Shown: positions 2,286-56,995, counted from the first letter of the stretch. The stretch is 64,000 nucleotides of DNA from a virus (IMGVR_UViG_3300028374_000002:1-64000), one strand, 5' to 3'. Numbers and translations: made by a program. The notes: generated from the sequence alone by a model not told the origin.

Positions 2286-2540
2286 ATGAATTATCTTAAA
2301 CTTTTCGAGGATTTTATTGCAAATAACATAGAAGGTAGCTTAATAAAAGTTGATGATGTTATTGAGTGTATTAATAAAAATGGTTTATTATATGCAGAAA
2401 CTATAAATGATTACCCACAACACAACCCAGATGAGGGTTTGAAAGTGTTAGACGTAGATAACGAAGGACTTGTAACAGTAGAAATTGATTCACAAGCACA
2501 TGAAGTATATTTGGATAATATTATAAGACTAGAATTTTAA
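2286..2540 (+). CDS. Hypothetical protein with CTS-like leader (MNYLKLFEDF)
   Basis: ORF with TAATATATA 4 nt upstream. Confidence 0.75.
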   Translation: MNYLKLFEDFIANNIEGSLIKVDDVIECINKNGLLYAETINDYPQHNPDEGLKVLDVDNEGLVTVEIDSQAHEVYLDNIIRLEF

Positions 2541-2983
2541 CTAAGCAATTTCTTTATTAGAACTTGTCTTCTTAAACTTTTCATATAACTATTAATCTCA
2601 GAACCTCTATTTATTTCTTCATAAGAATATTTATCTTGTAAATACTCTTTGACTTCTTGGTAAAAATTTGGTCTTTTATCTTTTGACAGTACTAAAATTA
2701 GAATTTTATTTTGATTAACACAATAATCTATAAGCTCCACTATATTACCAAACTCATATATATCAGTATTAAAGTTTATTACTAAGTTTTGTTTAATCTT
2801 AGTCATATCAAACTTCTCTAGTCTATTAAAGCCAAATTTGTTTTTAATAGTAAAATCTTTACCTATGCTTTTTTCGGCACTTCTATATAGTAACAAAGAT
2901 GAATCTAGATTATTAGTAAAGTTGAAGATTTGAACTATTGTTCTTAAATCAAAAAAATTATGTAAATTTAACATATATACCAT
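2537..2983 (-). CDS. Hypothetical protein with C-terminal RxxxIxxLL tail
   Basis: Ends LRRQVLIKKLLS; TATATTTG at 3000-3007. Confidence 0.75.
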   Translation of the reverse strand: MVYMLNLHNFFDLRTIVQIFNFTNNLDSSLLLYRSAEKSIGKDFTIKNKFGFNRLEKFDMTKIKQNLVINFNTDIYEFGNIVELIDYCVNQNKILILVLSKDKRPNFYQEVKEYLQDKYSYEEINRGSEINSYMKSLRRQVLIKKLLS

Positions 2984-3103
2984 AATAAATAATTTATAAC
3001 AAATATACTATTTATTTTTCGACTTTAGAAACTATTGTACCAATTAGTTATATAATATATACAAAGGCTAGGCGGAACAGTTCTTATAAAAACAAAAACA
3101 TAT

Positions 3104-4846
3104 ATGATTATTACAAAAAATGTAGAAATGAAATTAGGTATAAGAAATGCTACTAGGATAATTAGCATGTATGACCTAGACAGTAATTTAAAGCCTGGTG
3201 ATACTGCACTAATACCAGTTAATTTATTATCAAAGTCATCAAATTATAAGATAAAAGTAAGTTGTGATTATTGTGGATTAGAATTATATGTTCCTTATAA
3301 AAGGTATAATAAAAGTACTAGTACTATAAGTAAGTATTCTTGCTCTTCAAAGCAATGCTCTAACCAAAAGATAAAAGAAGTTTGCCAAGCTAAGTATGGT
3401 GTAGATAACCCATTTCAATCAGATGTTATTAAAGATAAGATAAAAAAAACACTAAATGAAAAATATGGAAAAGACCACCCAATGTATGTAGATAAAATAA
3501 AATCTAAGATAAAGGATACATGCTTGAAAAGATATGGTGTTAGTAGCTATACCAAAACTAAAGAATATAAAGAGAAAACTATTAAAACTAATCTAGAAAA
3601 GTATGGTGTTAACTGGCCATTACAAAGTGAAGAAGTAAAAAATAAGGGAATAAAGACTAGTTTGGAAAAGTATGGTGTTAAATATTCACAACAATCATAT
3701 CTTATAAGACAAAAAACAATTAGAACTAATCTAGAAAAGTATGGTGTTAAGTGTAATTTACAATCAGATGATTCTAAAGCCAAGATAAAAAAGACTATTT
3801 TGGAAAAGTATGGCGTTGACAATATAATGGAGAATGATGTGTTTAGAGAAAAATTTAATATAACAAAAGATAATTCATATGTTAGTTATTTATCTGATAA
3901 AATGTCTAGATTTAAATGTGAGAAGGGTCACTATTTTGAAATAAGTTCAGATAATTATATTTCAAGACGAAAGAATAATGTAGATTTATGTACTGTTTGT
4001 AATAGTATAGGAGATTCTAAATCCTTAAAAGAAGAAGAGTTATATAATTTTATAAAAAGTATATATAACGGCAAAGTTGAGCAATCATATAGAGATGGTC
4101 TTGAGATAGATATTTACTTACCAACGCTAAATATAGGATTTGAGTTCAATGGTCTTTATTGGCACTCGGAATCCTACAAAGGAAAGGACTATCATTTAGA
4201 TAAGACTGAACATTTTAAAAATAGAAGAATAAAAATAATACACATTTGGGAAGATGATTGGGTAAATAAGACAGATATCATAAAAAGTCAAATAAATAAT
4301 TGGATTGGGTTAACAAGTAAAAAAATATACGGTAGGAAGTGTTTAGTTAGAGAAATAAGTGATAGCAAAGTAGTTACAAAGTTTTTAGATGAAAATCATA
4401 TACAAGGTAAGGTTAGAAGCAGTTTAAAGCTAGGTTTATATCATATGGATGAATTAGTATCAGTTATGACCTTTAGCCACAATGAAGGACGTAAGAAGAT
4501 GCCTAATAGTGAGTGGAACTTATCTAGGTTCTGTAATAAGTTAGATACAAGTGTTATTGGTGGTGCATCTAAATTATTAAAATATTTTCAAAGAAGTTTT
4601 AAACCAACTAGGATAATTAGTTATGCTGATAAAGATTGGTCAACTGGTGATTTATATTATAATCTAGGCTTTAAACTATCAAACATATCTAGACCAGACT
4701 ATAAATATATCATTAATAATAGAAGAGTTCATAAGTCTAGATTTAGAAAGAATAACCTAAATACTGAATTGTCAGAAAGTCAATATATGAAAAAATCCCA
4801 TATTTTGAAAATATGGGATTGTGGAAAAATTAAGTTTGAGATTTAA
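3104..4846 (+). CDS. Hef-like free-standing homing endonuclease
   Basis: N-terminal CDYC Zn ribbon, KTNLEKYGV repeats, PD-(D/E)xK core (EIDIYLP..IGFEFNGLYWHS..HIWEDDW), C-terminal GNAT/Mom-like segment (GGASKLLKYF..SYAD). Confidence 0.75.
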   Translation: MIITKNVEMKLGIRNATRIISMYDLDSNLKPGDTALIPVNLLSKSSNYKIKVSCDYCGLELYVPYKRYNKSTSTISKYSCSSKQCSNQKIKEVCQAKYGVDNPFQSDVIKDKIKKTLNEKYGKDHPMYVDKIKSKIKDTCLKRYGVSSYTKTKEYKEKTIKTNLEKYGVNWPLQSEEVKNKGIKTSLEKYGVKYSQQSYLIRQKTIRTNLEKYGVKCNLQSDDSKAKIKKTILEKYGVDNIMENDVFREKFNITKDNSYVSYLSDKMSRFKCEKGHYFEISSDNYISRRKNNVDLCTVCNSIGDSKSLKEEELYNFIKSIYNGKVEQSYRDGLEIDIYLPTLNIGFEFNGLYWHSESYKGKDYHLDKTEHFKNRRIKIIHIWEDDWVNKTDIIKSQINNWIGLTSKKIYGRKCLVREISDSKVVTKFLDENHIQGKVRSSLKLGLYHMDELVSVMTFSHNEGRKKMPNSEWNLSRFCNKLDTSVIGGASKLLKYFQRSFKPTRIISYADKDWSTGDLYYNLGFKLSNISRPDYKYIINNRRVHKSRFRKNNLNTELSESQYMKKSHILKIWDCGKIKFEI

Positions 4847-6306
4847 TCATGATTTGGATCAATAATTATTTGCTTAACCTTACTATTACTACTTGTAATA
4901 GGAACTTCAACACCAACTGATATCATCAGAATCCTACCTCTTATTTTTGATAGGTCAAGGCTATCACAGTAACCATCGGTTAATACAACTGTATTGTATT
5001 GATTGAATTCATTTACTACATAATCGATTGCTGGTTGTAGCATTGTACCACCTAAACCCTTGATACATATTGTTTCCAATGCTTTTTTGCTTTTTATATT
5101 CTTGACCCATTTTACTTCGGTATCTGCCTCAATCAAATTAACCTCAATATCATTTCTATATATGAAAGATAAGACCTTTTCAAATGTACCACCCATAGAA
5201 CCAGAGGTATCTAGTATACAATTAATTTTAGAACTTACTTTTTTATGACCTTTCAAGCCCTTGATACCTCTTCTATTAGCACGTGTAATAGTCTTTTGTT
5301 TGTTAGTACCAAATATAACATTAGAAATAGATCTTTTTATCTCTCTAAGATAATCCTTTCTTTTCTTACGAAGCTTTCCAAGTGTTTGTTCAATATCACC
5401 ACCTGATAATCCACGAGCTGCTAATCTGTCCATAACATCTTTGACCATTCCCTCTCTCATTTCTTGGGGAACTTCATCTTCAATATGTTTATCTAAGTAC
5501 TCTCCATCACCATTCTCCATATCTTGGAAAATTTGTTCTTTAGACCATGTATCAACAGTACTTCCACTTGAAGAATTTTTACCATAAGGTCCATAAGAAG
5601 GCTTACCTTTAGAATCTTTCCCCTCACCATTACTGTTTCCACTACCTTCACAGTCTGGACAGTCATCTGATTCACTCTTGCCTTCACCATCACCACTTTG
5701 TGGATCACCATCTTTGCCTTCTTCTTCACTCTTATCACCATCACCACTTTCACCACCATCTTCGTCTTTTTTACCAGACCCACCACAAGACTTACACTCT
5801 GATTCTTGTTTCTCTTTCAACCATTTGTCCTTCTCATCTTGCATCCATTCATACAAGTGTTCAAAGATTAGTTCACCATCATATTCTTTAGGTACAAAAA
5901 GTGCCATGTTCTTACCATCACTAGATTTTGGTATCTCAACAAAAGAGTGAGATATATCATCCCATATAATATGGTTGATAATCATATCTTGTACAATATT
6001 CGATAACTTGTGATCAAAATTCCCAGTAACTGTTCTTTTTGGGTGATCAAATAGTAAGTGAAAATCCTCATGGAGAATAATAAAGTTCACTTCTTTTTGT
6101 GACATATCTTGTAGAAACTTAGGAGAGTAGAAAAAATTCATTCCTCTAGATGTTACATTAACTGCACATGTTCCTATTGAATCACGCTCTGTGAAATTGA
6201 CTTGAAGGTTAAACTCACCGTAGTATGGGAGGTTAACCTTCGTGTCGATTAACATTGTTTGCACTCCGTCTACAATTTTTTCGTGAATGTTTTTGTTGAA
6301 TATCAT
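4843..6306 (-). CDS. DUF2201-type putative metallopeptidase with C-terminal vWA domain
   Basis: HEDFH (HExxH), acidic Gly/Ser linker with CxxCxGxG motifs, MIDAS-like ILDTSGSMGG..GGT..LTDG. Confidence 0.85.
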   Translation of the reverse strand: MIFNKNIHEKIVDGVQTMLIDTKVNLPYYGEFNLQVNFTERDSIGTCAVNVTSRGMNFFYSPKFLQDMSQKEVNFIILHEDFHLLFDHPKRTVTGNFDHKLSNIVQDMIINHIIWDDISHSFVEIPKSSDGKNMALFVPKEYDGELIFEHLYEWMQDEKDKWLKEKQESECKSCGGSGKKDEDGGESGDGDKSEEEGKDGDPQSGDGEGKSESDDCPDCEGSGNSNGEGKDSKGKPSYGPYGKNSSSGSTVDTWSKEQIFQDMENGDGEYLDKHIEDEVPQEMREGMVKDVMDRLAARGLSGGDIEQTLGKLRKKRKDYLREIKRSISNVIFGTNKQKTITRANRRGIKGLKGHKKVSSKINCILDTSGSMGGTFEKVLSFIYRNDIEVNLIEADTEVKWVKNIKSKKALETICIKGLGGTMLQPAIDYVVNEFNQYNTVVLTDGYCDSLDLSKIRGRILMISVGVEVPITSSNSKVKQIIIDPNHD

Positions 6307-6329
6307 ATTTTGGATTTTTTATTACAATA

Positions 6330-6359
6330 CAAATGTAAGGCTTTTTATTAGAATACAAA
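6330..6359 (-). promoter_or_regulatory. Bacteroidota sigma70-type promoter
   Basis: TTTG-N18-TACATTTG on the minus strand, 24 nt upstream of the ATG at 6306. Confidence 0.7.
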
Positions 6360-6457: not shown

Positions 6458-8074
6458 ATGCTATTAGATAAATATATCGAAGTAAAGATTTCTAAGAAGA
6501 ATATAGAACACTTTTCAAAGTATTATAAAAATATATCTATCAAAGATGTATTAAGGATAAGGACTGATGAACTCCAGAGTGGTTCTAATAAGAGGATTAA
6601 AGTTAAATGTGATAATTGTTATATTGAAAACTTTATAAAATACCAGTCTTATTTTAAGAACATAACTTCATCTGAAAAACATCCAATATACACATGTGTT
6701 AAGTGTTCTCATATTAAAATAAAGTCTACTAACATGGATAAGTATGGTGTTGAATATTATTCTAAAACTGATGAGTATAATGCTAGGTTTAGAAAAACTA
6801 TGAAACAAAGGTATAGTGTGGAATACCCAACACAATCTAAAGAAATTTTAAATAAAATTAAAAATACTAACTTACAAAGATATGGTGTTGATAACATATT
6901 TAAAGATAATTCTTATATAAAAGATAAATTCATAGAAAAGTACGGTGTTGACCATCCTAGTAAAGTAAAAGAAATATATGATAGGGTGAAAGAAAGTAAT
7001 TTAAGGTCAACAGGATATGAATCCCCATTATCATCACCAGAAATAAGGGAGCGAATCAAAGAAACAAATAAGAGACTTTATGGTTCTAATACACCAAGTC
7101 AGTCTAATAGTGATAAAGGCATATCCTTGATGTCTTGTAAGAAGAATCATATATATGAGATAAGTTCGTCAAATTATCATAGTAGAAAACGTGATTGTGT
7201 ACCATTGTGTACTGTATGTAATCCTATCAGTTCTACATCTTCTATAAAGGAAAAGGAATTATATGAGTTCATATCTAGTATGTATAATGGTAGTATTATA
7301 AGGTCATTCAAAGATAAAAGAATAGAGATAGATGTATACATACCAGAATTAAAAATAGGCTTTGAATTTAATGGTCTATATTGGCATTCCGAAGAATATA
7401 AAGATAGAGATTATCATATTAAAAAAACAGAGTATTTTAAGGATAAGGGAATAAGGATTATACACATTTGGGAAGATGATTGGGTAAATAAGACAGATAT
7501 CATAAAAAGTCAAGTAAAAAATTGGCTAGGTTTAACAACACATAAGATATATGCCAGAAAATATATTATTAAGGAGGTTAGTGATATAAAAATTATCAGA
7601 AAGTTTCTTGATGAAAACCACATACAAGGCTTTGTAACATCAAGTAAGAAAATAGGATTATATTATGATGATGTGTTAGTATCTATTATGGTTTTTGACC
7701 ATAGAGAAGGTAGGGATAAAATGAATGATAACCAGTGGAACTTGTCTAGGTTTTGTAATAATAAGAATACTGTAGTCATTGGTGGTGCTTCTAGGCTTCT
7801 TAAATATTTTATGAAGTCTTATAGTCCTGTTAGAATTATAAGCTATGCTGATAGAGACTGGTCAGAGGGCAATGTGTACTATAATTTGGGGTTTGATATG
7901 GTAAAATCTAGTAAACCAGATTATAAATATATTGTCAATAGTAAAAGAGTGCATAAGTCAAGATATAAAAAATCTAATTTAGAAACAAATCTGACTGAGA
8001 ATGATTATATGAAAGCTAATAGTTACAAGAAAATATGGGACTGTGGGAAGATTAAGTTTGAAATTATTATATAG
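6458..8074 (+). CDS. Hef-like homing endonuclease paralogue
   Basis: Same domain order and motifs as 3104..4846. Confidence 0.75.
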   Translation: MLLDKYIEVKISKKNIEHFSKYYKNISIKDVLRIRTDELQSGSNKRIKVKCDNCYIENFIKYQSYFKNITSSEKHPIYTCVKCSHIKIKSTNMDKYGVEYYSKTDEYNARFRKTMKQRYSVEYPTQSKEILNKIKNTNLQRYGVDNIFKDNSYIKDKFIEKYGVDHPSKVKEIYDRVKESNLRSTGYESPLSSPEIRERIKETNKRLYGSNTPSQSNSDKGISLMSCKKNHIYEISSSNYHSRKRDCVPLCTVCNPISSTSSIKEKELYEFISSMYNGSIIRSFKDKRIEIDVYIPELKIGFEFNGLYWHSEEYKDRDYHIKKTEYFKDKGIRIIHIWEDDWVNKTDIIKSQVKNWLGLTTHKIYARKYIIKEVSDIKIIRKFLDENHIQGFVTSSKKIGLYYDDVLVSIMVFDHREGRDKMNDNQWNLSRFCNNKNTVVIGGASRLLKYFMKSYSPVRIISYADRDWSEGNVYYNLGFDMVKSSKPDYKYIVNSKRVHKSRYKKSNLETNLTENDYMKANSYKKIWDCGKIKFEIII

Positions 8075-8362: not shown

Positions 8363-9526
8363 TTATTTTTCTGAATTATAAGAATTAGATCCAGACAATT
8401 CATCAAATTTTTCATCTTGAACAAAACCTGTTCTAATCATTTTGTCTACTAGTTGATGCCAGTTTAAATCTCCTTGATATTTTATCTTATTTTTATCTAA
8501 GACAGAAATCTTACCTTTGTAATCTATTGAATTAATAGATTCTAGTGATTCTGTATCTAATTGAAATTCCTTGTTTGATATGTCATCTGACTTAGCAATG
8601 CTTATTTCAAAATATCCCTCTGTTAATTGTTCAAACAAGACCTCTTTTTTAAGATTTATAAGATCAGCTATTTTATCAGCAATTTCTCTATTAGCTTCGG
8701 TAAGTCCAATGTCAGATTTCTTCTCTTCTGATACAAAAAATACTAAACCATTTGGTTCTTGTTTAATATTCATACTATCTAATCTTTTCTCTAAAACAGA
8801 TAGTCCATCTGTTATCTCATCTATTTTTTTATCAAGAACTTTCTTATCAGAGTTGAATCTATTGATATCACTCACAGATTCACTTATTCTTAATTTTAAT
8901 TCTTCTAGTTTCTCTTTTTTGGAACTTTCGAATGATTCTTTAATAAGAGAAGCGTAAGTACTTGTTTCATTACTTTGCTCAATATCTTCCTCAATATCAT
9001 CTACTAAATCTTCTGTAGAGTCTTCACCATCAGTGGTTTCACTATTGAAGTCTTTACTCTCTAATAAAGAAGATAATATAGACTTACTTCTATCGCTCAT
9101 TTCTATTTTTTTATCATCTTCTTCAAATATACTATTGAGCTTGCCCATTGGTGTCTGATGATTAACACCTAGATAACATATAGAACCATCTTCATCTTTA
9201 AACGTGAGGTTATTAACAACATGCTTATGTGAATAGTTAATTACTCCCATATCATCAATCTGGTCAAGAAGCCTTTTAAGCATACCCTTATCAGTTATAT
9301 TAGCATCACCTACTTCTTCGAAATCGACAGTACTATCACTTCTTACAGTTAGCTTTAGGCTAACACCTTCTAACATACCAGATAGGACACCCCCATCAAG
9401 AAATGCGAAATCTCTAAAAAGTCTTACCTTAGAGGTTCTGGAACTAGATAGGAATTTTTCATATTTTCTAGAAGTTTTAAACTCACCAATAACATTTTCT
9501 TCTTTGATATTTTCTACTTTGCTCAT
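8363..9526 (-). CDS. Hypothetical protein with acidic linker and coiled coil
   Basis: 387-aa ORF; TATATTTG at 9554-9561. Confidence 0.8.
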   Translation of the reverse strand: MSKVENIKEENVIGEFKTSRKYEKFLSSSRTSKVRLFRDFAFLDGGVLSGMLEGVSLKLTVRSDSTVDFEEVGDANITDKGMLKRLLDQIDDMGVINYSHKHVVNNLTFKDEDGSICYLGVNHQTPMGKLNSIFEEDDKKIEMSDRSKSILSSLLESKDFNSETTDGEDSTEDLVDDIEEDIEQSNETSTYASLIKESFESSKKEKLEELKLRISESVSDINRFNSDKKVLDKKIDEITDGLSVLEKRLDSMNIKQEPNGLVFFVSEEKKSDIGLTEANREIADKIADLINLKKEVLFEQLTEGYFEISIAKSDDISNKEFQLDTESLESINSIDYKGKISVLDKNKIKYQGDLNWHQLVDKMIRTGFVQDEKFDELSGSNSYNSEK

Positions 9527-23273: not shown

Positions 23274-23292
23274 TTTACTTAATATATACTAA

Positions 23293-31992: not shown

Positions 31993-32541
31993 ATGAAAAT
32001 ACAAAGATTTAGTCAATATTCGGAAAAGTTAAATGAGATGAATGATACACCAGAGAGTTATATAGCCACAGCACTTAATAAGCTTAAAAGAAAAGTTGAT
32101 AAAATGTTTGCATATTTGGATGGTAAAACACAAGGTGGTAAGATATTAACACCAGAGGGCTTAGAAAAAGTAGATCCGAAAGATATAACGTTTAAAGATT
32201 TAGGACTTCATTTAGATAGTTCTGAGGTCTCTAAATATTCTAAGTTATATGACTCATTTACTATAAAGTTTAGAGATGCTAACAACGCATATACAATGAT
32301 TGTAATGATTGGTGTTGAGGAGGCTATGCCTGAAGAGTCAGAAGAACAATTTGGACAAGATAATATAGAAAATGCTTATATAAAATTTAAGAAGTATGGT
32401 AGTGAGGGTATGGACTTAATTGGACAAATGGATAAAAATGTGAAAATAAAAGATATTGATGAAGCATTCTTGATAGATTTGAAGATTGAACTAGATGATG
32501 AGTATGATGAAAATGAGGATGAATTCGAAATACAAACATAA
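31993..32541 (+). CDS. Hypothetical protein with CTS-like leader (MKIQRFSQYSEKLNE)
   Basis: ORF. Confidence 0.8.
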   Translation: MKIQRFSQYSEKLNEMNDTPESYIATALNKLKRKVDKMFAYLDGKTQGGKILTPEGLEKVDPKDITFKDLGLHLDSSEVSKYSKLYDSFTIKFRDANNAYTMIVMIGVEEAMPEESEEQFGQDNIENAYIKFKKYGSEGMDLIGQMDKNVKIKDIDEAFLIDLKIELDDEYDENEDEFEIQT

Positions 32542-35305: not shown

Positions 35306-36565
35306 ATGAATAATTATTTAAAACGATTTAAAACTTTTGAACTAGTTACCTCTCGTGATGAGTTAAATAGCACAAGAGATAGAAGGTCTAGCCTAGTAGA
35401 ACCAGCACTCATGGAACTAGAAGACTATCTAGAATTACTAGGTGCTAACAAGCAACATCCCTCATCTGCGTATCAATTTAACCTATCCGATTCGGAAAAA
35501 TTTGAAAATAAAGACCTTTATGACTATTTGAACACAAAAAAACATGGCTCTGTGTCAGTAAAATACTATATTAGAAATGATAAAGAGCATAACAATTCCT
35601 ATGTTAAAACAAATGATGAAGGTCATGTAGTACGTGATACAAAGGGTATGGCAGTTTATTTAAATAATGATGAATTAAAGGAAAAAGACCTATTAAATAA
35701 ATATGATAAGAATATAGTAGCTATTCATAATGATATTATAGTTGGGTCTGCTCAAGATGAATGGGGTTGTGTCTTAGTGTATGTGGTTGATGAATTTAAA
35801 GGTATAGGGATAGGTCAAGAATTAGTTGAATATTATAGAAAGATATACCCTGATAAGGTATCTGGAGGCACAACAGAGGATGGTTACAAGAACTTAATTA
35901 AATACTATAAGTATCAAGTTAAATTATACCTAAGAAATGGCATATATTCAGACATGGTCAAAAATGGTGATATTTCTAAAGAAAAAGTCAAGAAGATAAC
36001 AGATAGTGTAAAGGGAACGAAATACACCAAATACAAAGATACTATTTATAGTAAATATTTAAATATTGATAGTTATAATAAAGCTTTTGTTTATTCTGAT
36101 GGTGATATTGTATTAATAAATGATAAAATACTAGATTTCTATAATGATTATGATGGAACTGGTAAAGACTTTTATGAAAAATTCGTGTTTGGACACTCAC
36201 ACATTGTAGACAATGAGTATAATCAAAGATTATACTTTATAGAGGGAAAAAGCAATAAAGATATAGAAAGTGTTATAAAGCATTCACTATGCTTTATAAA
36301 TTCATATTATAAAAAAGATTTTGCTACATATTTTGTAACAGAGAATACATCTGACATAGTTAGAAAGTTTTTCAAGAGTATTGATAAAAATACAGATTTT
36401 AAAGTAGAATGGTATGAGAAAGACAGATGTAAAATATACTTTGACAAATGTGACTCTCTGAAAAAAGATTTATTAACAGGAACTAAATGGTTCTATTCTT
36501 TAGATGATAAATATGATGAAATAAAAAACCAATTAATAGAGAACGTTTACTCAACATTTGAATAA
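35306..36565 (+). CDS. Protein with CTS-like leader and internal GNAT-like motif
   Basis: MNNYLKRFKTFE; VYVVDEFKGIGIGQELV resembles GNAT motif A. Confidence 0.6.
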   Translation: MNNYLKRFKTFELVTSRDELNSTRDRRSSLVEPALMELEDYLELLGANKQHPSSAYQFNLSDSEKFENKDLYDYLNTKKHGSVSVKYYIRNDKEHNNSYVKTNDEGHVVRDTKGMAVYLNNDELKEKDLLNKYDKNIVAIHNDIIVGSAQDEWGCVLVYVVDEFKGIGIGQELVEYYRKIYPDKVSGGTTEDGYKNLIKYYKYQVKLYLRNGIYSDMVKNGDISKEKVKKITDSVKGTKYTKYKDTIYSKYLNIDSYNKAFVYSDGDIVLINDKILDFYNDYDGTGKDFYEKFVFGHSHIVDNEYNQRLYFIEGKSNKDIESVIKHSLCFINSYYKKDFATYFVTENTSDIVRKFFKSIDKNTDFKVEWYEKDRCKIYFDKCDSLKKDLLTGTKWFYSLDDKYDEIKNQLIENVYSTFE

Positions 36566-37608: not shown

Positions 37609-37815
37609 TCAATTGGAATCAGAGTTTTTTAATTCTTCAACTAAAGATTTAACATCATCGAATTCTATATATTTACCGTAAACCCATTCTGTCTTTGTAC
37701 CATCTTCTTCTATATCAAAGGCTTTAAATTGTAACATATCTAACTTTTCGATAACATCAGACACTTTTAATTTTTTATCTTTTTCCTCTTTCATTTTATT
37801 ATTTTCATTATTCAT
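37609..37815 (-). CDS. Hypothetical protein
   Basis: ORF; TATATTTG at 37851-37858. Confidence 0.65.
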   Translation of the reverse strand: MNNENNKMKEEKDKKLKVSDVIEKLDMLQFKAFDIEEDGTKTEWVYGKYIEFDDVKSLVEELKNSDSN

Positions 37816-38608: not shown

Positions 38609-38947
38609 TTAATTCTTTAAATAATTAACAATCTTAATTGGATTAATTGACTTATTCTTCGTTACAAATGTTGATAAATCACCCACTTTACGCTTAATAT
38701 CATCAATTATATCACTAGAATTAGCACCATCAGGATACTTATTACTAAACCAATCTTTATCCGATATCATTGTATTAACTCATGTTTGTAAAGTCTCAAT
38801 ACCATACTCATCTAATCCTAGTGACGTTAAATACTTATTCTTTGGCATTGGACTACCATGGTGGTCTCCTTTGAATTGTGAAACAAGATCATAATTTTCA
38901 TTTATGAATAATGTAAAGTTTTTTATCTTGCTCTTTGGTGTTTCCAT
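38609..38947 (-). pseudogene. 112-codon gene with one in-frame TGA at codon 56
   Basis: METPKSKIKNFTLFINE...LQT*VNTMISDKDW..., open for 56 more codons; TGA at 38780-38782. Confidence 0.55.
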
Positions 38948-39654: not shown

Positions 39655-39861
39655 TTAAAGCGTTTCTCTGTAATCACTTATCAAATCACTTGAATACCAA
39701 GTGCTTACTAAAAGACAATCACCACTTTTTATAAGCGAGTATTTATCTTCATTATTTTTAGCAAATTCTATAAACCCATCATACCTAAATAACTTCCTAT
39801 CATTTCTCTTTGATGATAGTTCAGAATATCTTTTTGATATTTTTTCTATTGAATGTAACAT
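39655..39861 (-). CDS. Hypothetical protein
   Basis: ORF; TATGTTTG at 39887-39894. Confidence 0.65.
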   Translation of the reverse strand: MLHSIEKISKRYSELSSKRNDRKLFRYDGFIEFAKNNEDKYSLIKSGDCLLVSTWYSSDLISDYRETL

Positions 39862-41339: not shown

Positions 41340-41879
41340 TTATAATTTATAATTTTTGAAAATATATCTATGAAACTCATCATAATCCATTGATGGTGCA
41401 ATTTCTCTTATTGGATTAATCTTTATTTCTAAATTTATATTAAGTTCCTTATTCAATATTTTAGCAGCCGAATACCTATGATGACCATCTTCGATATAAA
41501 ACCCCTTCTTGTGCTTATCATCTTGCCAGTAAGAGACATCTATTGGCTCTGATAAATCTATTGTCATTGCCCACTTCTTTTTTGATAAAACACTTTTAGA
41601 TATTTCATATCTTACATTTTCTATATCATCATCCCATCTAATTTTTAAGTATTTTGGTTCTAATGTTTTGATATCACCTTCTGAGAACCCATGTGCTAAC
41701 CTATCTAGTGTTTCGATTGAAATACCACCACCCCTTAATAGTTCTTCATCGGTATCATACTTTGCTAGTTCTTTTTTTAAAGAATCTATAAACTCAGTTT
41801 TTAAATAAACTTTATTGCTTTCTATTTGCTCATTAATATATTCACTTATAGTAGTTGATATAAATTTCCGTGATTTCAT
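41340..41879 (-). CDS. ParB/Srx-like domain protein with CTS-like leader
   Basis: PIDV..YIEDGHHRYSAA; N-terminal MKSRKFISTTISEYINE. Confidence 0.65.
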   Translation of the reverse strand: MKSRKFISTTISEYINEQIESNKVYLKTEFIDSLKKELAKYDTDEELLRGGGISIETLDRLAHGFSEGDIKTLEPKYLKIRWDDDIENVRYEISKSVLSKKKWAMTIDLSEPIDVSYWQDDKHKKGFYIEDGHHRYSAAKILNKELNINLEIKINPIREIAPSMDYDEFHRYIFKNYKL

Positions 41880-42341: not shown

Positions 42342-42581
42342 CTATTCTATAATTAACTTGTGTGTAATAGTTTGTTTATTTTTTATCAAAAAATAACCAC
42401 CAATTGCCAAACCACCAATAAGACCTAACCAAATTTGTCCATCAATAGGAGCTGGAACATCTTTTACAGTACCATCACCAGGCAGCATAGGAGGATTTCC
42501 TCCTGCACCAGGTTGGGCTATAAGAGATCCTACTGAAAAAAGTGAGAGGATAAGAATAAAAAGTATTTTTTTAGTTTTCAT
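42342..42581 (-). CDS. Small secreted/membrane protein of PID-CTERM type
   Basis: Signal peptide, Pro/Gly linker, PAPIDG plus TM helix plus basic residues. Confidence 0.7.
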   Translation of the reverse strand: MKTKKILFILILSLFSVGSLIAQPGAGGNPPMLPGDGTVKDVPAPIDGQIWLGLIGGLAIGGYFLIKNKQTITHKLIIE

Positions 42582-45600: not shown

Positions 45601-45756
45601 CAAATTTATATCTTGAGAATTTGATTTAATATTAATTAAAACATCACTATTTCTATCAGATTTATTGTTGACTAATTGTTGGTCTTGTGCCATTGAGACA
45701 ATGGATGTCATCAAACCAATTATCAAATAAATCATTACTTTTCTAAATTTATTCAT
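42613..45756 (-). CDS. Large secreted protein with T9SS C-terminal sorting domain
   Basis: Sec signal peptide, Asn/Gly-rich beta-repeat body, C-terminal LYPNPS..VSVFNVIG..LNTGVYLIRL..THKLIVE. Confidence 0.9.
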   Translation of the reverse strand: MNKFRKVMIYLIIGLMTSIVSMAQDQQLVNNKSDRNSDVLINIKSNSQDINLDCDCDYVIDDSDDDWPTGNLNNKTICLSGNFTYNANWKDIGNNGTLCIGEGVTFNSQGLNWPNSGNNLTLNNYGNFNHGTQSTILIKNNSVINNYGTLTTVVKLQNGTLNSYDGASTNLVGGGTNFDSGLINVYTGSVLNVNSGSYEQMGNGFTLNNEGSTTFEDNLANSNGSINSSGTINFSQKFRNDSYANISGDLTILGDLESNSNNAELIVENSFIVNCDLKVWSGKIAANAGFEIIGSTVINSTGTIQFGEEIIFNNLTSHAGLIESSSGCNKIILNGEVAGWGGRITANNESAITIPSFSEIPPDRNWVFNGTVGIEDCTPEPTVWIGVVSTDAENINNWSNGFPDRNSDIVINITPNDPIFSENVEIKNLLIANGASVSQTNESQIDIYGDFENNGTYNPGNSTLAFKGAGIQNFSTDSTTSVYSLTIDNGHSLNLVSGNVNVLGSLNLITGDLITNYDHAIPDNNLVTFKSNATHTAIISEIENDNTIVGEVMIERYIPMGNRAFRFMTTSVNTTTSINENWQEGVNNTVNDYEENKDPNPGYGTHITGSTTGANGLDATRTGNPSLFSWNSQNGIWSTISNTNTNTLEAGKAYGILIRGDRGTNMYLNNLAKGDDTRLRSLGTILTGDVNINDDLNPNPEGFSLIGNPYQAEVDMKATLKNSSTHLGKRFYYAYKPNIGDRGGYVTVDLSSEPIEYVPNIPNISPEKFRYLQVNQSVFVQTNSVVPENEAPSLTFKEEFKTDSTSTNEVFRDVPTSKIDLNIFSISNNELMDGVRFKFDATYNEEAGPDDALKFWNDDETIGIQSDGNYLAIEKRPFPKDDDVFSFWIDNYRDVDYIMNIEVENMPDYDVFLRDTYTEEDHQLNEGENDIAFDIDSSIPGSVNSDRFKIMFEQDSTLCTSQDERIASTQLYPNPSNSGFVYITHNPYFNNELKVSVFNVIGQNIEIQNERISTSELKLNTSSLNTGVYLIRLTYQTQTTTHKLIVE

Positions 45757-48540: not shown

Positions 48541-48957
48541 TTACCCAATCATTTGCTCTAGGTTAGCATTTCTATTTATCATCTTATCACCACCTAATTC
48601 TTTTTTTATCATAGAAACTCTGCATTTTAAATTTCTGTCACTATCACAACTCGTTATAACAGGATATATACTGTTTCTAGGCTTAATATTAGAGATAGTT
48701 CTCTTATGACCGAATCTGTCTGTAAAAGACATTCCAATTACATTTTGTGTAAATCCAACTTTCCTACATAACATTCTTTGTATTTCATAATTTTTACCAA
48801 CATTTTTAGACAATGAGAGTTCGATGTTTATGTTGCAAGATAATACGTTGCTACTATGTTCACTTATTAAATATTCTAGACCTTCTCTTTTTGTAATATC
48901 AGAAATGGCTTTATCTATTTCTTTCTTGATACTGTCAATTTTAATTTTAGTAAGCAT
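48541..48957 (-). CDS. Hypothetical protein with degenerate C-terminal tail
   Basis: Ends INRNANLEQMIG. Confidence 0.7.
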   Translation of the reverse strand: MLTKIKIDSIKKEIDKAISDITKREGLEYLISEHSSNVLSCNINIELSLSKNVGKNYEIQRMLCRKVGFTQNVIGMSFTDRFGHKRTISNIKPRNSIYPVITSCDSDRNLKCRVSMIKKELGGDKMINRNANLEQMIG

Positions 48958-50155: not shown

Positions 50156-50353
50156 TTAGTTTAAGTCTTTTAATAATGATTTAGCAGTCTTATACTGCCT
50201 TTCGCTTAGTATTCTTATATTTCGCTTGCCAATATTAACTTTTTCTAAGTATTTATTACTCTTTAATTGCTTTTTTAAGGATGTTAAGAAGGTATTTTCT
50301 CCTTTATAAGTTCTTATTTCTTTATTCAATTCTATCTTTTGTTCCAGTTCCAT
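50156..50353 (-). CDS. Hypothetical protein
   Basis: ORF; TATATTTG at 50379-50386. Confidence 0.7.
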   Translation of the reverse strand: MELEQKIELNKEIRTYKGENTFLTSLKKQLKSNKYLEKVNIGKRNIRILSERQYKTAKSLLKDLN

Positions 50354-52930: not shown

Positions 52931-53257
52931 ATGAGCAAACTAAAAAATTGGAAGCTTAAATCAACTAATATTTCTATTAATGATACTACTAGGAAACGTT
53001 GTGAAACTAATGCTGAAATATACATGAATAAGTTTAAAATAATATTTGAAAACTTATTCGAATCGTCTTATTATTGTGGTGGTAATGTACCTACAAAACA
53101 AGAAGTAGAATCCCATTTAAACTCACTTGGATTTAAACTAACTATAAAAAAAGATGGAACTATGGTTTTGAAGTATAGTAGATACTTTGACATAGTACTT
53201 GATAGCAATACAAATTCAATAATAAGAGCAATTAAATTAAAAAATATTTTAAAATGA
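52931..53257 (+). CDS. Hypothetical protein with C-terminal tail
   Basis: Ends IRAIKLKNILK. Confidence 0.7.
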   Translation: MSKLKNWKLKSTNISINDTTRKRCETNAEIYMNKFKIIFENLFESSYYCGGNVPTKQEVESHLNSLGFKLTIKKDGTMVLKYSRYFDIVLDSNTNSIIRAIKLKNILK

Positions 53258-54315: not shown

Positions 54316-54517
54316 TTAAACATCACCTATATCGTTCATATATGAGAAAAGAAGTATAAGACAACTTGAAAATATACAAGCTATCGAAATATTGGTAATT
54401 ACGTTATAACCATTCACAGAGTTACTAGAAATGATAAACCACATAATAGATATGGTGATGAATGTTCTTCTGTATTTTGCTATTCTTTTCATAGGATGGT
54501 AAATATACTAAAACTAA

Positions 54518-55153
54518 TTATATAATTGACACTTTAGCCTTTCTTTCGTTTAAAAGTATTTGTAATTCATCTTTTCTAAATGTTTTTAGATAAATATCGT
54601 TCATAGCATCTGTGTTTTGTAAATCCCATTCACTACCATTTGATGTTTGGTATATATATCTCTCATCACCATCAATAATCTCGATACTTCTAGATGTTAA
54701 CTTTTCATAAAACTTTTTAACATCATCATTTACTTTATACATCTTAGCATCTTCCCATCTATCCAAAGAAGAATTCCATGTTTGGAATAACATATAGTCT
54801 GGGTTTTCTAATTCATTAGCATTCATGTCATATATGAACATAAATTTACAGGCTTTATTTAAAAATGTTTGAAAATCATCACTATTCTTAACATCAGACT
54901 TCTTAAGTCCTATGCTAGACAAAGAATTTATAAATTCTATATTATCCGATAGAAATTCAATATCTAAATTATCAACATACACATCTGTTGGTAGGTCTAG
55001 TGTAGTAAATATGTTAACTTCTTCTGCATTTATAGAACTTATTAATGAATCATGCCATATATTTAGTGATTCCATTAAATCATCAAAATGTTCATATTCA
55101 AAATTGAATTGAATTGATTCTTTATAGCTATTGTAGTCCTTGATATATCTCAT
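54518..55153 (-). CDS. Hypothetical protein with CTS-like leader (MRYIKDYNSYKES)
   Basis: ORF; TAATATATA at 55175-55183. Confidence 0.8.
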   Translation of the reverse strand: MRYIKDYNSYKESIQFNFEYEHFDDLMESLNIWHDSLISSINAEEVNIFTTLDLPTDVYVDNLDIEFLSDNIEFINSLSSIGLKKSDVKNSDDFQTFLNKACKFMFIYDMNANELENPDYMLFQTWNSSLDRWEDAKMYKVNDDVKKFYEKLTSRSIEIIDGDERYIYQTSNGSEWDLQNTDAMNDIYLKTFRKDELQILLNERKAKVSII

Positions 55154-55239
55154 ATGTATAATTGGTTGTAAAGATATATATTAATTTTTAAAAACAACAA
55201 TGGTATTTTAATATATAAAGAAAACATATTTATAATTAG

Positions 55240-56607
55240 ATGAAATGGATTAGAAATTACGAGATATTCAAAGAGAGTAAATCATATTCAAATAAAAATT
55301 TAGTTAAAGAAATATGTACTTCAATGGTACTTCTTAACAATACGTTTTTAGATGATTTACTAGACAAAGGTATAAAGGCTAGATATTCGTCAAATTCTGA
55401 TGTATTCCTAACTGATTTAAAAAATCTATTAATTACTAAGAATAGATTAGAGTTAGGTAAGTACATTGATGGTAAATGTCAAAAAGATGATGAAATATCC
55501 AAAGTAATCGAACATTTTGAAGGTGTTAAGTTTGATATAGAGAAAGACTGGAAGTTGTTAGTAGATTCAAGAACTACTGCTAGAAGTATTATTGATAAAC
55601 TTTTAGCAGAGGAAAAGCTAGAAGAGAGTAGAATAAAGAAAGTATATTGGTTAGGACCAAACAAGACAGATGAATATGGTGAAGATATCGTTGTTGAGTT
55701 AAATGATGGTAGACAATTCTCTTTCTTCCTTGATAAAAGCTTATCAAAAACAAAAACAGCATCATTTAATAAGCTATCAGAAGAATTAATAGGTAATGAT
55801 TTAGATAATCTATTCAAGGGTGATTATCTTGAAAAATGGTCAATGCTAACACAAGAATGGATTACACTAATTTATGAGAATGTAAATAAAAATATACAAT
55901 CTCATATTGAAAAATTCATAGACACAAAAAATATTGATAAAATAGGATATTTTGATTTCTTTTCGATAAGACACAATGATTCTAGATATAGACACCTTGG
56001 GGAATATATGAAAGAGTTTGATAGAAACATACTTAATCTTTCTGATTTATTAATAGAAGTTTGGAAGGATAAGAAAATGTTTTTTAAAGATGAAGAATTA
56101 GTAACTAAAAAGTGGAATGAGACAAAAGTTGTTTTGCTCAACTCTAAAATACTAGAAAAGTTATTTACTGATTCTTTCAAAGAAAACTATCTAGATGACA
56201 TCGATAAACTAGATAATAATTTCAAACTAGCAACTGGTGAACTGAAAATGAAGTTATTTAAAATAATTGTTGAAAAATTAGGTTGCGAAGAAAGAAATAT
56301 TTATTACTTAGATAAGGGTAAATCATTCGAGATGATACCTTCTAGACAATTCTTTAGAAGATATTTTGATGATTTAGATATAATGTTTGACTATCACGTA
56401 GATTTTACAACTGATTCTGAAGATGATAATAATTTTGGGATTGTTATAAGAGTCGAAATGGATACTGATAAATTATTAGATTTAGACATTGATATAAAGT
56501 TTGCTGGTGGTGAGATGTCTGGTAAATTGAATGCTAAGTATAGTTTTGATATTTCTAAAAATTTTAACTATTTAGTATCTAAAAAGCAAACGTTTAAAGA
56601 ACAATAA
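55240..56607 (+). CDS. Hypothetical protein with CTS-like leader (MKWIRNYEIFKES)
   Basis: ORF; TAATATATA at 55209. Confidence 0.8.
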   Translation: MKWIRNYEIFKESKSYSNKNLVKEICTSMVLLNNTFLDDLLDKGIKARYSSNSDVFLTDLKNLLITKNRLELGKYIDGKCQKDDEISKVIEHFEGVKFDIEKDWKLLVDSRTTARSIIDKLLAEEKLEESRIKKVYWLGPNKTDEYGEDIVVELNDGRQFSFFLDKSLSKTKTASFNKLSEELIGNDLDNLFKGDYLEKWSMLTQEWITLIYENVNKNIQSHIEKFIDTKNIDKIGYFDFFSIRHNDSRYRHLGEYMKEFDRNILNLSDLLIEVWKDKKMFFKDEELVTKKWNETKVVLLNSKILEKLFTDSFKENYLDDIDKLDNNFKLATGELKMKLFKIIVEKLGCEERNIYYLDKGKSFEMIPSRQFFRRYFDDLDIMFDYHVDFTTDSEDDNNFGIVIRVEMDTDKLLDLDIDIKFAGGEMSGKLNAKYSFDISKNFNYLVSKKQTFKEQ

Positions 56608-56611
56608 CTAA

Positions 56612-56995
56612 TTACTGCTCTTGTGAAAACATTTCTATGAATTCTTCATCAAAGTCACCATTATCATCAAAAACTGGGACTTCGTCATAACCTATTTCAC
56701 ACATAAATGGAAAACTTGACTTAGAGTTGTATGTGGTTTTCATAATGACATCCTCTCCATTTACAGTAATATGGTAATTTGATACATAAAGACCATCACT
56801 ACCTAAATCTATTTCAAAAGGCTCACCACTTTCTTCTATGATTATACTTATACCTTCTGGTAATTGATGGTCTAATATTTTAAGAGCTAGGACACCCATA
56901 CATTTAAGTAATTTACTTTCATTAAAGAAATCTCTAGGTATTACTCTTTTGTAGTCACTATTATACGATTCGAATGTTTTTATGTTTTTTTCCAT
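56612..56995 (-). CDS. Hypothetical protein with CTS-like leader (MEKNIKTFESY)
   Basis: ORF; TAATATATA 4 nt upstream. Confidence 0.8.
   Translation of the reverse strand: MEKNIKTFESYNSDYKRVIPRDFFNESKLLKCMGVLALKILDHQLPEGISIIIEESGEPFEIDLGSDGLYVSNYHITVNGEDVIMKTTYNSKSSFPFMCEIGYDEVPVFDDNGDFDEEFIEMFSQEQ

What the first reader, a model, noticed from the sequence alone, without database searches (positions are those of the whole stretch)
2286..56995. Shared N-terminal leader resembling the T4 capsid-targeting sequence on unrelated proteins
Seen: MKHIKPYKIFES (all LRRs; first right-array gene has SYK), MNYLKLFEDF (2286), MKIQRFSQYSEKLNE (31993), MNNYLKRFKTFE (35306), KIKNFTLFINE (38947), MKSRKFISTTISEYINE (41879), MRYIKDYNSYKES (55153), MKWIRNYEIFKES (55240), MEKNIKTFESY (56995). 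Core is [IL]-K-x-[FY]-x-x-[FY] followed by E, and the proteins are otherwise unrelated. All these genes lie at or downstream of a T[AT][AT]TATATA motif. Established: T4 IPII/IPIII carry the N-terminal CTS MKTYQEFIAE, cleaved after Glu by the gp21 prohead protease. Inference: a genome-wide packaging tag that defines the set of injected proteins.
Basis: partly seen in the sequence, partly recalled or inferred. Interest (0 to 1): 0.8.

Follow-up and report, generated by a model that had tools for sequence, protein, structure and literature searches.

The report
T4-like capsid address tag, expanded
About one in six genes of this fragment of a giant lake phage starts with the same roughly 11-residue peptide, which matches the clip-off tag phage T4 uses to load proteins into its head, so the phage probably packs dozens of unrelated proteins, including a family of variable binder proteins, but no packaging has been measured.

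Summary
In the 201-kb record, 40 of 237 ORFs carry [ILVM][KR]x[FYW]xx[FYW] within the first 9 positions, against 0.6 expected. Seventeen of them are not LRR paralogues (p about 1e-19) and are mutually unrelated.

- **Conservation:** it acts on the peptide, not the DNA, and orthologues in the complete 634-kb relative LR745206 keep the tag (72 of 946 ORFs).
- **T4 match:** a matrix trained on these leaders ranks T4 IPIII, IPII, IPI and gp61.1 as the top 4 of 269 T4 ORFs. Its two invariant aromatic positions are the published T4 targeting residues.
- **Head machinery:** the phage has T4-type portal, capsid protein, gp21-like protease fused to a scaffold, and a gp55-like late sigma.
- **Scaffold link:** the scaffold holds 11 repeats of YSEYIAE, the same 7-mer as T4's YQEFIAE.

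My best reading (about 0.7) is a T4-type capsid-targeting propeptide used on a far larger scale than in T4. Packaging, cleavage and injection are all untested. The cargo is acidic, unlike T4's basic internal proteins.

Two listed members are weak: 31993 is degenerate and 41879 is unsupported. The upstream motif is the phage's general promoter, not specific to tagged genes. This scan reported the same tag earlier in other windows of this genome and in other huge-phage genomes.

The parts
1..828 (-). LRR gene of the left array, cut by the window start. Its N-terminus at 828 reads MKHIKPYKIFES.
   Evidence: Translation.
831..1499 (-). LRR gene (222 aa) with leader MKHIKPYKIFES.
   Evidence: Matrix score 22.2 bits; member of the LRR BLAST cluster.
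1502..2233 (-). First LRR gene of the left array (243 aa), with the leader. TAATATATA ends 4 nt before its ATG.
   Evidence: AF2 model: residues 1-14 have pLDDT below 50 and the fold starts near residue 20.
2286..2540 (+). 84-aa ORFan with leader MNYLKLFEDF. The promoter-like motif TTAATATATAC lies at 2272-2282.
   Evidence: Matrix 15.7 bits. Orthologue W01 513049 starts MKWVMLFEDF. Motif position.
31993..32541 (+). 182-aa protein with a degenerate leader, MKIQRFSQYSEKLNE.
   Evidence: Matrix score below 4. Its 47%-identical orthologue W01 479412 starts MKIRKYIEFITE.
35306..36565 (+). 419-aa protein with leader MNNYLKRFKTFE. It has a weak GNAT-like hit and matches phrog_29287.
   Evidence: Matrix 11.8 bits; family searches; promoter motif ends 4 nt upstream.
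38780..38947 (-). 55-aa ORFan whose leader starts at residue 8: METPKSKIKNFTLFINE.
   Evidence: Matrix 14.7 bits.
41340..41879 (-). It has a weak ParB-like hit.
   Evidence: Matrix score below 4 and no orthologue in W01; phrog_1033 E = 2e-5.
54518..55153 (-). 211-aa ORFan with leader MRYIKDYNSYKES.
   Evidence: Regex hit but matrix only 6.3 bits. Orthologue W01 556311 starts MRYIKSYKTFKES, 64% identity.
55240..56607 (+). 455-aa ORFan with leader MKWIRNYEIFKES.
   Evidence: Matrix 16.8 bits. Orthologue W01 557002 starts MKWLRNFELFKEA.
56612..56995 (-). 127-aa ORFan with leader MEKNIKTFESY. The promoter motif ends 4 nt upstream.
   Evidence: Matrix 13.8 bits; promoter.
61424..64000 (+). Right LRR array: genes at 61424, 62157, 62891 and 63624, the last running past the window end. 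Each has the leader MKHIK(S/P)YKIFE(S/N). TTAATATATAC lies at 61410-61420 before the first gene.

Best explanation
The shared peptide is most likely a T4-type capsid-targeting propeptide. Its consensus is M-K-x-[IL]-K-x-[YF]-x-x-[FY]-E, with a second form M-I-K-K-[YFW]-x-x-F-[IL]-x-E.

Proposed mechanism:
1. The tagged proteins are made from the same phage-specific promoter type as the head genes.
2. Their flexible N-terminal tag docks them onto the scaffolding core of the assembling prohead. The two aromatic residues three apart are the contact, as at positions 4 and 7 of the T4 tag.
3. The shell closes around the core.
4. The gp21-like prohead protease then cuts after a Glu at or just behind the tag (L/I-x-E in about half of the leaders), freeing the mature protein inside the head.

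The scaffold part of the protease-scaffold fusion carries 11 repeats of Y-S-E-Y-[IVL]-A-E. This is the same aromatic-x-x-aromatic-[IL]-x-E unit as the tag, so the tag may work as a single copy of the scaffold's own repeat.

Shown here: the motif, its enrichment, peptide-level conservation, its quantitative identity with the T4 tag, and the T4-type head genes. Inferred: docking, cleavage, retention in the virion and ejection into the host.
For: 1. Enrichment at N-termini only: 40 of 237 ORFs against 0.57 expected. The 17 non-LRR carriers give p = 1e-19 and are mutually unrelated.
2. Peptide-level selection: synonymous codon use at the conserved K, F, Y and I/L positions equals genome-wide usage. 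In all 13 orthologue pairs with LR745206 the partner keeps a related N-terminus while individual residues vary.
3. T4 control: the regex finds ipI, ipII and ipIII, annotated as internal head proteins. The matrix trained on the huge-phage leaders scores gp61.1 at 19.6, IPIII 18.5, IPII 17.1 and IPI 15.2 bits. These are the top 4 of 269 ORFs, and the best of 5,783 internal T4 windows scores 8.0.
4. The most informative columns are K and the two aromatics (3.1, 3.2 and 3.6 bits). In T4 IPIII, targeting maps to residues 4 and 7 (Y, F) and processing to residues 8 and 10 (I, E) (PMC9026906).
5. T4-type head module in the same record: Gp23 capsid protein E = 5e-28, Portal_T4 E = 3e-53, head maturation protease phrog_207 E = 2e-27. 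hhalign to T4 gp21 gives E = 2e-5, with T4 His85 and Ser140 opposite invariant H74 and S129.
6. The T4 gp23 cleavage site FLTE|A aligns with SINE|N in this capsid protein and with [IL]xE in PTm1, PAU and MA9V-2.
7. [IL]xE lies within 49% of leaders, against 17% of other N-termini and 12% of internal windows.
8. The scaffold has 11 YSEY[IVL]AE repeats. In LR745206, 38 of the 95 proteome-wide occurrences of this 7-mer class are either scaffold repeats (11) or N-terminal (27).
9. An 84-aa protein of the relative (W01 93266) is a leader ending FIE|NA joined to a copy of the capsid protein's mature N-terminus, where the capsid protein has INE|NA.
10. AF2 places the leader outside the LRR fold: residues 1-14 have pLDDT below 50.
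11. The same T[AT]ATATATA element precedes the capsid, protease-scaffold and portal genes and the tagged genes. In LR745206 tagged genes use it 34 times against 1 use of the host-like TAnnTTTG element, while other genes use them 143 and 79 times, p = 2e-5. A gp55-like late sigma is encoded (phrog_234, E = 1e-7).
12. In the cultured relative PAU, at least 16 head-module proteins share a leader MKT[LI]xxL[YF]E. They include gp142 and gp154, annotated 'internal capsid protein', and gp152, annotated 'scaffolding'.
Against: - There are no protein-level data: no virion proteome and no N-terminal mapping.
- Only 49% of leaders have a strict L/I-x-E site. Common forms such as LKTFES have Thr at P3.
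- The tagged proteins are markedly acidic: median pI 4.5-4.9 against 5.6-5.95 for other proteins, p <= 1e-6. T4 IPI-III are described as basic (PMC9026906).
- The scale has no experimental precedent: 7.6% of a complete 634-kb proteome and 17% of this fragment.
- The T[AT]ATATATA element also precedes both topoisomerase genes, so it is not proven to be a late-only promoter.
- T4 gp61.1 carries the same tag and is not known to be packaged.
- [IL]xE is not depleted in the mature parts of non-LRR tagged proteins.
Confidence: 0.7

Rival explanations
1. The docking mechanism is the same but the fate differs. Most tagged proteins are building material of an oversized prohead core (scaffold filler). 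The protease degrades them and they are expelled before DNA enters, so they are not cargo delivered to the next host.
For: - The tag equals the repeat unit of the scaffold.
- The tagged proteins are acidic. T4's gp67 N-terminal region ends in an acidic run (EEPEDEDEDEDDE); that the T4 core proteins gp22, gp67 and gp68 are acidic as a class is my recollection, not computed here.
- T4 core proteins are cut into fragments and leave the head (PMC9026906).
- PAU's annotated scaffolding protein gp152 carries that phage's own leader.
- A head sized for about 640 kb needs a very large core.
Against: - Tagged proteins include folded LRR binders with hypervariable faces.
- In the relative they include enzymes: a 2H-phosphoesterase/Acb1-like plus DEDD exonuclease fusion, a CCA-type nucleotidyltransferase and a NUDIX protein. 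These make little sense as disposable filler.
- Internal [IL]xE sites are not enriched in tagged proteins.
Confidence: 0.15
2. The peptide is an address or recognition tag for a different machine. Candidates are a modifying enzyme (as proposed elsewhere in this scan for a radical-SAM-linked tag), a chaperone, an export route or an intracellular compartment.
For: No direct evidence here places the proteins in the head.
Against: - The tag is quantitatively the T4 CTS, whose function is established by experiment.
- Tagged genes are scattered across the genome and are not linked to any one enzyme gene.
- This record has no radical-SAM gene, and LR745206 has a single one.
- The tag has no hydrophobic stretch typical of Sec signals.
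Confidence: 0.08
3. The similarity reflects a nucleotide-level signal. It would be a promoter-proximal or translation-start element of leaderless mRNAs, or a promoter-plus-5'-end cassette spread by recombination, and not a functional peptide.
For: - The promoter-like motif ends only 4-5 nt before the ATG of many genes, which suggests leaderless transcripts.
- In LR745206 tagged genes are enriched among motif-bearing genes, 19% against 5%.
Against: - 73 of 107 genes (68%) with the motif ending within 8 nt of the ATG have no leader.
- About half of the motif-bearing tagged genes (22 of 48) have the motif 18-48 nt upstream, and the in-array LRR genes lack it within 60 nt.
- Conserved positions use synonymous codons in genome-wide proportions and swap F, Y and W, and six or more I/L codons.
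- Orthologues keep the pattern while changing residues.
Confidence: 0.03

Closest known systems
[quoted passage not shown]
   Same: - It is an N-terminal tag of 10-20 residues placed on otherwise unrelated proteins.
- It has the same K-x-aromatic-x-x-aromatic core, often followed by [IL]-x-E.
- The huge-phage matrix ranks the three T4 internal proteins among the top 4 of 269 T4 ORFs.
- The phage has a homologous gp20 portal, gp21 protease and gp23 capsid protein.
   Different: - Scale: 40 of 237 ORFs here and 72 of 946 in the relative, against 4 in T4.
- The main form is shifted by three residues (M-K-x-[IL]-K...), and Glu often directly follows the second aromatic residue.
- The cargo is acidic, not basic, and includes tandem arrays of variable LRR proteins.
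- Here the scaffold itself carries 11 tag-like repeats, which T4 gp22 lacks apart from its N-terminus MLKEQLIAEA.
- Function is untested.
Leader family of phage PAU (host reclassified as Sphingobacterium, PMC3738902), one of the nearest cultured relatives by portal similarity
   Same: - At least 16 proteins start MKT[LI]xxL[YF]E. They include proteins annotated in GenBank as 'internal capsid protein' (gp142, gp154) and 'scaffolding' (gp152).
- The head module is of the same type.
   Different: - The consensus differs (L-x-x-L-[YF]-E), and the huge-phage matrix does not score it highly.
- PAU's tagged genes sit almost all inside the head-gene cluster, whereas here they are scattered over the genome.
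- I could not see the basis of the PAU annotations.
N-terminal propeptides of inner-head and ejection proteins of phiKZ-like giant phages (phiKZ, 201phi2-1, SPN3US; PMC5694885)
   Same: A diverged gp21-type protease cuts after Glu, and the propeptides are thought to target proteins into the prohead.
   Different: Those propeptides are mostly longer than 100 residues and lack a shared short consensus. They belong to a different phage lineage.
Phage P1 DarB N-terminal packaging signal (PMC9024508)
   Same: A short N-terminal signal of fewer than 30 residues is sufficient to load a reporter into the capsid, and the cargo is anti-restriction proteins.
   Different: The Dar proteins share no consensus. 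The head lineage is unrelated, and no sequence similarity was tested here.

Membership tests
T4-type capsid-targeting sequence (CTS) | It lies at the extreme N-terminus and is 10-20 residues long. | tested here: met
   33 of the 40 hits start at residue index 3, and the internal rate is 2.7e-4 per position. AF2 shows residues 1-14 outside the fold.
T4-type capsid-targeting sequence (CTS) | Two aromatic residues three apart act as targeting determinants (T4 IPIII residues 4 and 7; PMC9026906). | tested here: met
   These are the most informative matrix columns (3.2 and 3.6 bits). T4 IPI-III score 15-18.5 bits against an internal maximum of 8.0.
T4-type capsid-targeting sequence (CTS) | An L/I-x-E processing site for the prohead protease lies at the end of the tag. 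| tested here: inconclusive
   The strict site is present in 44 of 89 leaders, against 17% and 12% in controls. A relaxed hydrophobic P3 gives 78%, against 26% and 20%. The specificity of this phage's protease is unknown. The capsid protein has SINE|N where T4 gp23 is cut.
T4-type capsid-targeting sequence (CTS) | The phage builds its head through a gp20 portal, a gp23-type shell, and a gp21 protease with a scaffold core. | tested here: met
   PF07230 E = 3e-53, PF07068 E = 5e-28, phrog_207 E = 2e-27. hhalign to T4 gp21 gives E = 2e-5 with the T4 His85 and Ser140 columns conserved. The assignment of these two as catalytic residues is from memory.
T4-type capsid-targeting sequence (CTS) | The tag is attached to otherwise unrelated proteins. 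| tested here: met
   17 non-LRR carriers form 17 singleton BLAST clusters.
T4-type capsid-targeting sequence (CTS) | The tag is sufficient for incorporation into the prohead and is removed there. | not testable with these tools
   This needs virion proteomics or reporter fusions.
T4 internal proteins (IPI/IPII/IPIII) as a protein class | They are small basic proteins that lie with the packaged DNA. | tested here: not met
   Tagged proteins have median pI 4.5 in this record and 4.9 in LR745206, and median lengths of 231 and 180 aa. They share the tag with T4 internal proteins, not the protein class.

The most novel reading that the evidence does not exclude
The tag is a single-unit mimic of the scaffold's own 14-residue repeat (..YSEYIAE..). 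It lets any protein co-assemble into the prohead core. With it, these 460-640-kb Bacteroidota phages load 70 or more different, mostly acidic proteins into each head and deliver them with the DNA. The cargo would include a hypervariable LRR binder library and nucleotide- or RNA-processing enzymes. That would amount to a phage-borne effector arsenal defined by a sequence tag readable from the genome.
Probability: 0.25. Interest if true: 0.85.

Novelty: new variant of a known kind. Interest (0 to 1): 0.62.

Why it matters
What the largest known phages carry inside their heads is unknown, and none of them is cultured. If this tag works as in T4, the virion cargo of a whole clade of 460-640-kb phages can be read directly from genome sequence. 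That cargo would be dozens of proteins per genome, including the diversified LRR arrays and candidate counter-defence enzymes.

It would also extend the T4 targeting tag from enterobacterial T-even phages to distant Bacteroidota megaphages. The scaffold-repeat resemblance offers a concrete, testable idea of what the tag binds, which is still unresolved in T4. In practice, the tag could be used to load foreign proteins into phages of Bacteroidota.

Tried and rejected
- **Complex prediction** of the scaffold repeat region (residues 200-470, two copies) with the first 40 residues of an LRR protein gave no verdict: score 0.00, partner pLDDT about 30. It is not used as evidence either way.
- **Depletion of [IL]xE** in the mature parts of tagged proteins was uninformative. 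Observed/expected was 0.99-1.22 in non-LRR carriers against 1.13-1.15 in other proteins, and 0.76 in the non-independent LRR paralogues.
- **Profile of the protease-scaffold family against PDB sequences** gave no hit at E <= 0.01. Direct hhalign to T4 gp21 worked instead.
- **Pfam and PHROG on the window's tagged proteins** were almost all blank. 35306 has only a sub-threshold GNAT hit.
- **Chance or AT-bias** is rejected by the internal rate and by the lack of enrichment in PTm1 (29.7% GC) and PAU (31.3% GC).
- **A by-product of the adjacent promoter, or a DNA cassette,** is rejected by codon usage and by the many promoter-adjacent genes without a leader.
- **A radical-SAM-linked tag** is rejected. 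This record has no radical-SAM gene and the 634-kb relative has one.
- **False positives of the regex:** 143544 is a homing endonuclease, and W01 294395 is an SbcC-like protein.
- **Literature:** no paper held 'capsid targeting sequence' together with huge, jumbo or mega-phage terms, apart from the phiKZ/SPN3US work. The MA9V-1 paper has SDS-PAGE only and no mass spectrometry. I could not read the basis of PAU's 'internal capsid protein' annotation.

Full report
**Context.** The window is the first 64 kb of a 201,264-bp IMG/VR virus record. It has 28% GC, and CheckV estimates it is 28% complete. By portal similarity its nearest relatives are the uncultured 634-642-kb phages LR745206 (81% identity), LR756502 and LR756504. 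More distant are LR756501 (735 kb), LR756500 (462 kb) and the Lak phages. The nearest cultured relatives are the Bacteroidota phages PAU, PTm1/PTm5, pT24 and MA9V-1/2, and only beyond them come the classical T4-like phages. PAU's host has been reclassified as a Sphingobacterium (PMC3738902).

- 40 ORFs carry [ILVM][KR]x[FYW]xx[FYW] starting within the first nine positions, 33 of them exactly at the fourth residue.
- The same pattern occurs only 16 times in 59,359 internal positions, which predicts 0.57 N-terminal hits.
- My regex for the LRR leader picked out 23 paralogues. By BLAST one further carrier, 147153, also joins the LRR cluster.
- The other 17 give p about 1e-19, and after trimming the tag they share no BLASTP similarity.
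- One of the 17, at 143544, is a homing endonuclease and is probably a chance hit.

A position matrix trained only on the relative LR745206, and therefore independent of this record, scores 39 ORFs above the 99.9th percentile of internal windows. In the window these are the six complete LRR genes plus 55240, 2286, 38780, 56612 and 35306. A seventh LRR gene is cut by the window start and has the same N-terminus.
- 54518 scores low, but its orthologue is canonical.
- 31993 is a degenerate copy. Its 47%-identical orthologue starts MKIRKYIEFITE.
- 41879 is unsupported.

**Peptide or DNA?**
- At the conserved positions, synonymous codons appear in genome-wide proportions: AAA/AAG 71/29 and TTT/TTC 70/30. 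F, Y and W interchange, and six or more I/L codons are used.
- There are 115 reciprocal-best-hit pairs with LR745206, at a median identity of 53%. Thirteen involve a tagged protein, and in every one the partner has a related N-terminus with different residues at the free positions.
- 68% (73 of 107) of genes with the promoter-like motif ending within 8 nt of the ATG have no tag.
- The tag is therefore selected as a peptide.
- AT-richness does not explain it. PTm1 (29.7% GC) and PAU (31.3% GC) show 4 hits against 1.6 expected and 1 against 1.05 expected.

**Distribution.** The complete 634,780-bp genome LR745206 has 72 tagged ORFs of 946, against 3.5 expected. I also counted a degenerate DNA proxy for the tag and compared it with the same pattern read backwards as a control.

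| Genome | Proxy hits | Control |
|---|---|---|
| LR756502 | 60 | 4 |
| LR756504 | 45 | 8 |
| LR756500 | 24 | 4 |
| LR756501 (735 kb) | 12 | 11 |
| Lak-A1 | 15 | 9 |

Two forms of the tag exist. The main one is MK[HY][IL]Kx[YF]xx[FY]E. The second is MIKK[YFW]xxF[IL]xE.

**Comparison with T4, tested rather than recalled.**
- I fetched the T4 genome. The regex hits five of its 269 ORFs: ipI, ipII and ipIII, which the record annotates as internal head proteins, plus gp61.1 and one probable chance hit.
- The matrix trained on 88 non-LRR huge-phage leaders scores gp61.1 at 19.6, IPIII 18.5, IPII 17.1 and IPI 15.2 bits. The next ORF scores 10.7, and the best of 5,783 internal T4 windows scores 8.0.
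- The review PMC9026906 states that the first 10 residues of IPIII suffice for packaging. It also states that targeting depends mainly on residues 4 and 7, that processing depends on residues 8 and 10, that gp21 cuts after L/I-x-E, and that the internal proteins co-purify with the scaffold gp22.
- Residues 4 and 7 of MKTYQEFIAE are the two aromatics. They correspond to the two most informative columns of the huge-phage matrix.
- Chryseobacterium phage MA9V-2 has three T4-like tags: MKNFFSFINEA, MKTFTYFINEA and MKTFFTFVNES. The second sits between the portal and protease genes.

**Machinery.** The same record encodes the following head and late-transcription genes.

| Gene | Coordinates in the record | Evidence |
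|---|---|---|
| Gp23-type capsid protein | 139519-141222, minus strand | E = 5e-28 |
| T4-type portal | 149919-151613 | E = 3e-53 |
| Protease-scaffold fusion, 712 aa | 141303-143441 | N-terminal third is a head maturation protease, phrog_207 E = 2e-27, Peptidase_S77 E = 0.0025 |
| gp55-like late sigma | 155093-155458 | phrog_234 E = 1e-7 |

- Some of the more than 3,600 metagenomic homologues of the protease-scaffold carry precomputed PF03420 hits.
- hhalign of the family profile against T4 gp21 gives E = 2e-5. T4 His85 and Ser140 lie opposite invariant H74 and S129. That these two are the catalytic residues is my recollection of Cheng et al. 2004.
- In an alignment of capsid-protein N-termini, the T4 gp23 maturation site FLTE|AEIGG falls on SINE|NAY here, and on FLNE|S, IINE|S and LME|N in MA9V-2, PTm1 and PAU. 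An [IL]-x-E specificity is therefore plausible for this lineage.
- Within the leaders, strict [IL]xE occurs in 49%, against 17% of other N-termini and 12% of internal windows. With a relaxed hydrophobic P3 the figures are 78% against 26% and 20%. The processing site is thus only partly met.

**A new clue to the docking partner.**
- The C-terminal two thirds of the protease-scaffold protein hold 11 tandem 14-residue repeats, NIxYSEY[IVL]AENLDK, which are conserved in all 24 aligned homologues.
- Each repeat contains aromatic-x-x-aromatic-[ILV]-x-E: YSEYIAE, compared with T4's YQEFIAE and the second tag form YNQFINE.
- This 7-mer class occurs 95 times across the LR745206 proteome. Eleven are in the scaffold and 27 lie within the first 12 residues of a protein.
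- T4 gp22 has no such repeat, but it begins MLKEQLIAEA. PAU's annotated scaffolding protein begins with PAU's own leader.
- I infer that the tag docks by imitating one scaffold unit. This is post hoc and unproven.
- One protein of the relative supports equivalence between the tag and the capsid protein's own propeptide. W01 93266 is a leader ending FIE|NA joined to a copy of the mature capsid-protein N-terminus, which follows INE|NA in the capsid protein.

**Structure.** I ran AF2 on LRR gene 1502-2233 with 23 paralogues. Mean pLDDT is 80. Residues 1-14 fall below 50 and have no secondary structure, and the confident fold starts near residue 20. This fits a detachable extension.

**Expression.**
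- T[AT]ATATATA is the dominant upstream 8-mer in both genomes.
- It precedes the capsid, protease-scaffold and portal genes and a tail-like gene, as well as the first gene of each LRR array and 10 of the non-LRR tagged genes.
- It also precedes both topoisomerase genes, so it is not shown to be a late-only element.
- A second element, TAnnTTTG, precedes a different set of mostly small genes. From memory this is the Bacteroidota housekeeping -7 consensus.
- In LR745206, tagged genes use the first element 34 times and the second once, while other genes use them 143 and 79 times (Fisher p = 2e-5). In this record the counts are 14 and 0 against 58 and 18 (p = 0.06).
- Tagged genes therefore look non-early, which packaging requires.

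**What is tagged?** Most tagged proteins are ORFans. In the relative, one is a 2H-phosphoesterase/Acb1-like domain fused to a DEDD exonuclease, one is a CCA-type nucleotidyltransferase, and one is a NUDIX protein. In the window, 35306 has only a sub-threshold GNAT hit. The tagged proteins are clearly acidic: median pI is 4.5 here and 4.9 in the relative, against 5.95 and 5.6 for other proteins. This differs from T4's basic internal proteins. It keeps open the possibility that many are core components removed before DNA enters, rather than injected cargo.

**Verdict.**
- A capsid-targeting tag is well supported by homology and controls. That it marks injected proteins is not tested.
- I file it as a new variant of a known kind: the T4 CTS principle in distant Bacteroidota megaphages, with a shifted consensus, scaffold-like repeats and a cargo list more than ten times longer.
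- In the searchable literature I found no description of a CTS in these phages.
- Earlier notes of this scan reached the same reading on other windows of this genome and on other huge-phage genomes. I re-tested it independently here.

Noticed in passing
G000 141303-143441 (-), outside the window; locus L014:1303-3441: The 712-aa prohead protease-scaffold fusion has 11 tandem 14-aa repeats (NIxYSEY[IVL]AENLDK, residues about 300-440). They are followed by a His/Asp/Glu-rich repeat (EEGMHDEEGMHDEEGKHDEDMHDEE). More than 3,600 homologues exist in metagenomes.
   Followed up: partly
Whole record and LR745206; in the window for example 2272-2282, 23279-23289 and 61410-61420: The distance from the end of the promoter-like T[AT]ATATATA to the ATG is bimodal, at 4-5 nt and 18-28 nt. 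The short class suggests many leaderless or nearly leaderless mRNAs, in a phage of hosts that lack Shine-Dalgarno pairing.
   Followed up: partly
LR745206 (W01) 93266-93520, 291407-291880 and 554784-555284: There are small paralogues of the capsid protein's N-terminal region. One is a leader joined to a copy of the mature capsid N-terminus. Two keep the propeptide-like KKWxPxxE...HSINE segment. T4 gp61.1 (54 aa) looks analogous, with a CTS-like start followed by ..TTSGAV.. as in gp23.
   Followed up: partly
Phage PAU (JQ362498) 100-114 kb; locus L055: At least 16 consecutive or nearby head-module proteins share the leader MKT[LI]xxL[YF]E(A/S)xLNE. They include proteins annotated as internal capsid proteins and the scaffolding protein. 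This is a second, distinct tag family in a cultured relative that could be tested directly.
   Followed up: partly
window 2537-2983, 4843-6306, 8363-9526, 13888-14139, 15996-16217, 37609-37815, 39655-39861, 48541-48957 and 50156-50353 (upstream regions): A TAnnTTTG element, like the Bacteroidota -7 promoter box, precedes a separate set of mostly small genes. These may be the early genes read by the host polymerase.
   Followed up: partly
window 3104-4846, 6458-8074 and 21441-23273; also G000 153251 and 157396: Several 540-610-aa ORFs share an N-terminus of the type IKIKxxxRNIKYYKSxGY. This looks like a family of homing-endonuclease-like genes scattered among core genes.
   Followed up: no
G000 155093-155458 (-), locus L014:15093-15458: A 121-aa protein matches the T4 gp55-type late sigma factor (phrog_234, E = 1e-7). 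This points to T4-like late transcription in this megaphage.
   Followed up: partly
window 42342-42581 and 42613-45756 (-): Two adjacent proteins (79 aa and 1,047 aa) start with classical hydrophobic signal-peptide-like N-termini (MKTKKILFILILSLFSVGSLIAQ, MNKFRKVMIYLIIGLMTSIVSMAQ). They are unlike the tag discussed here and may be exported or membrane proteins of the phage.
   Followed up: no
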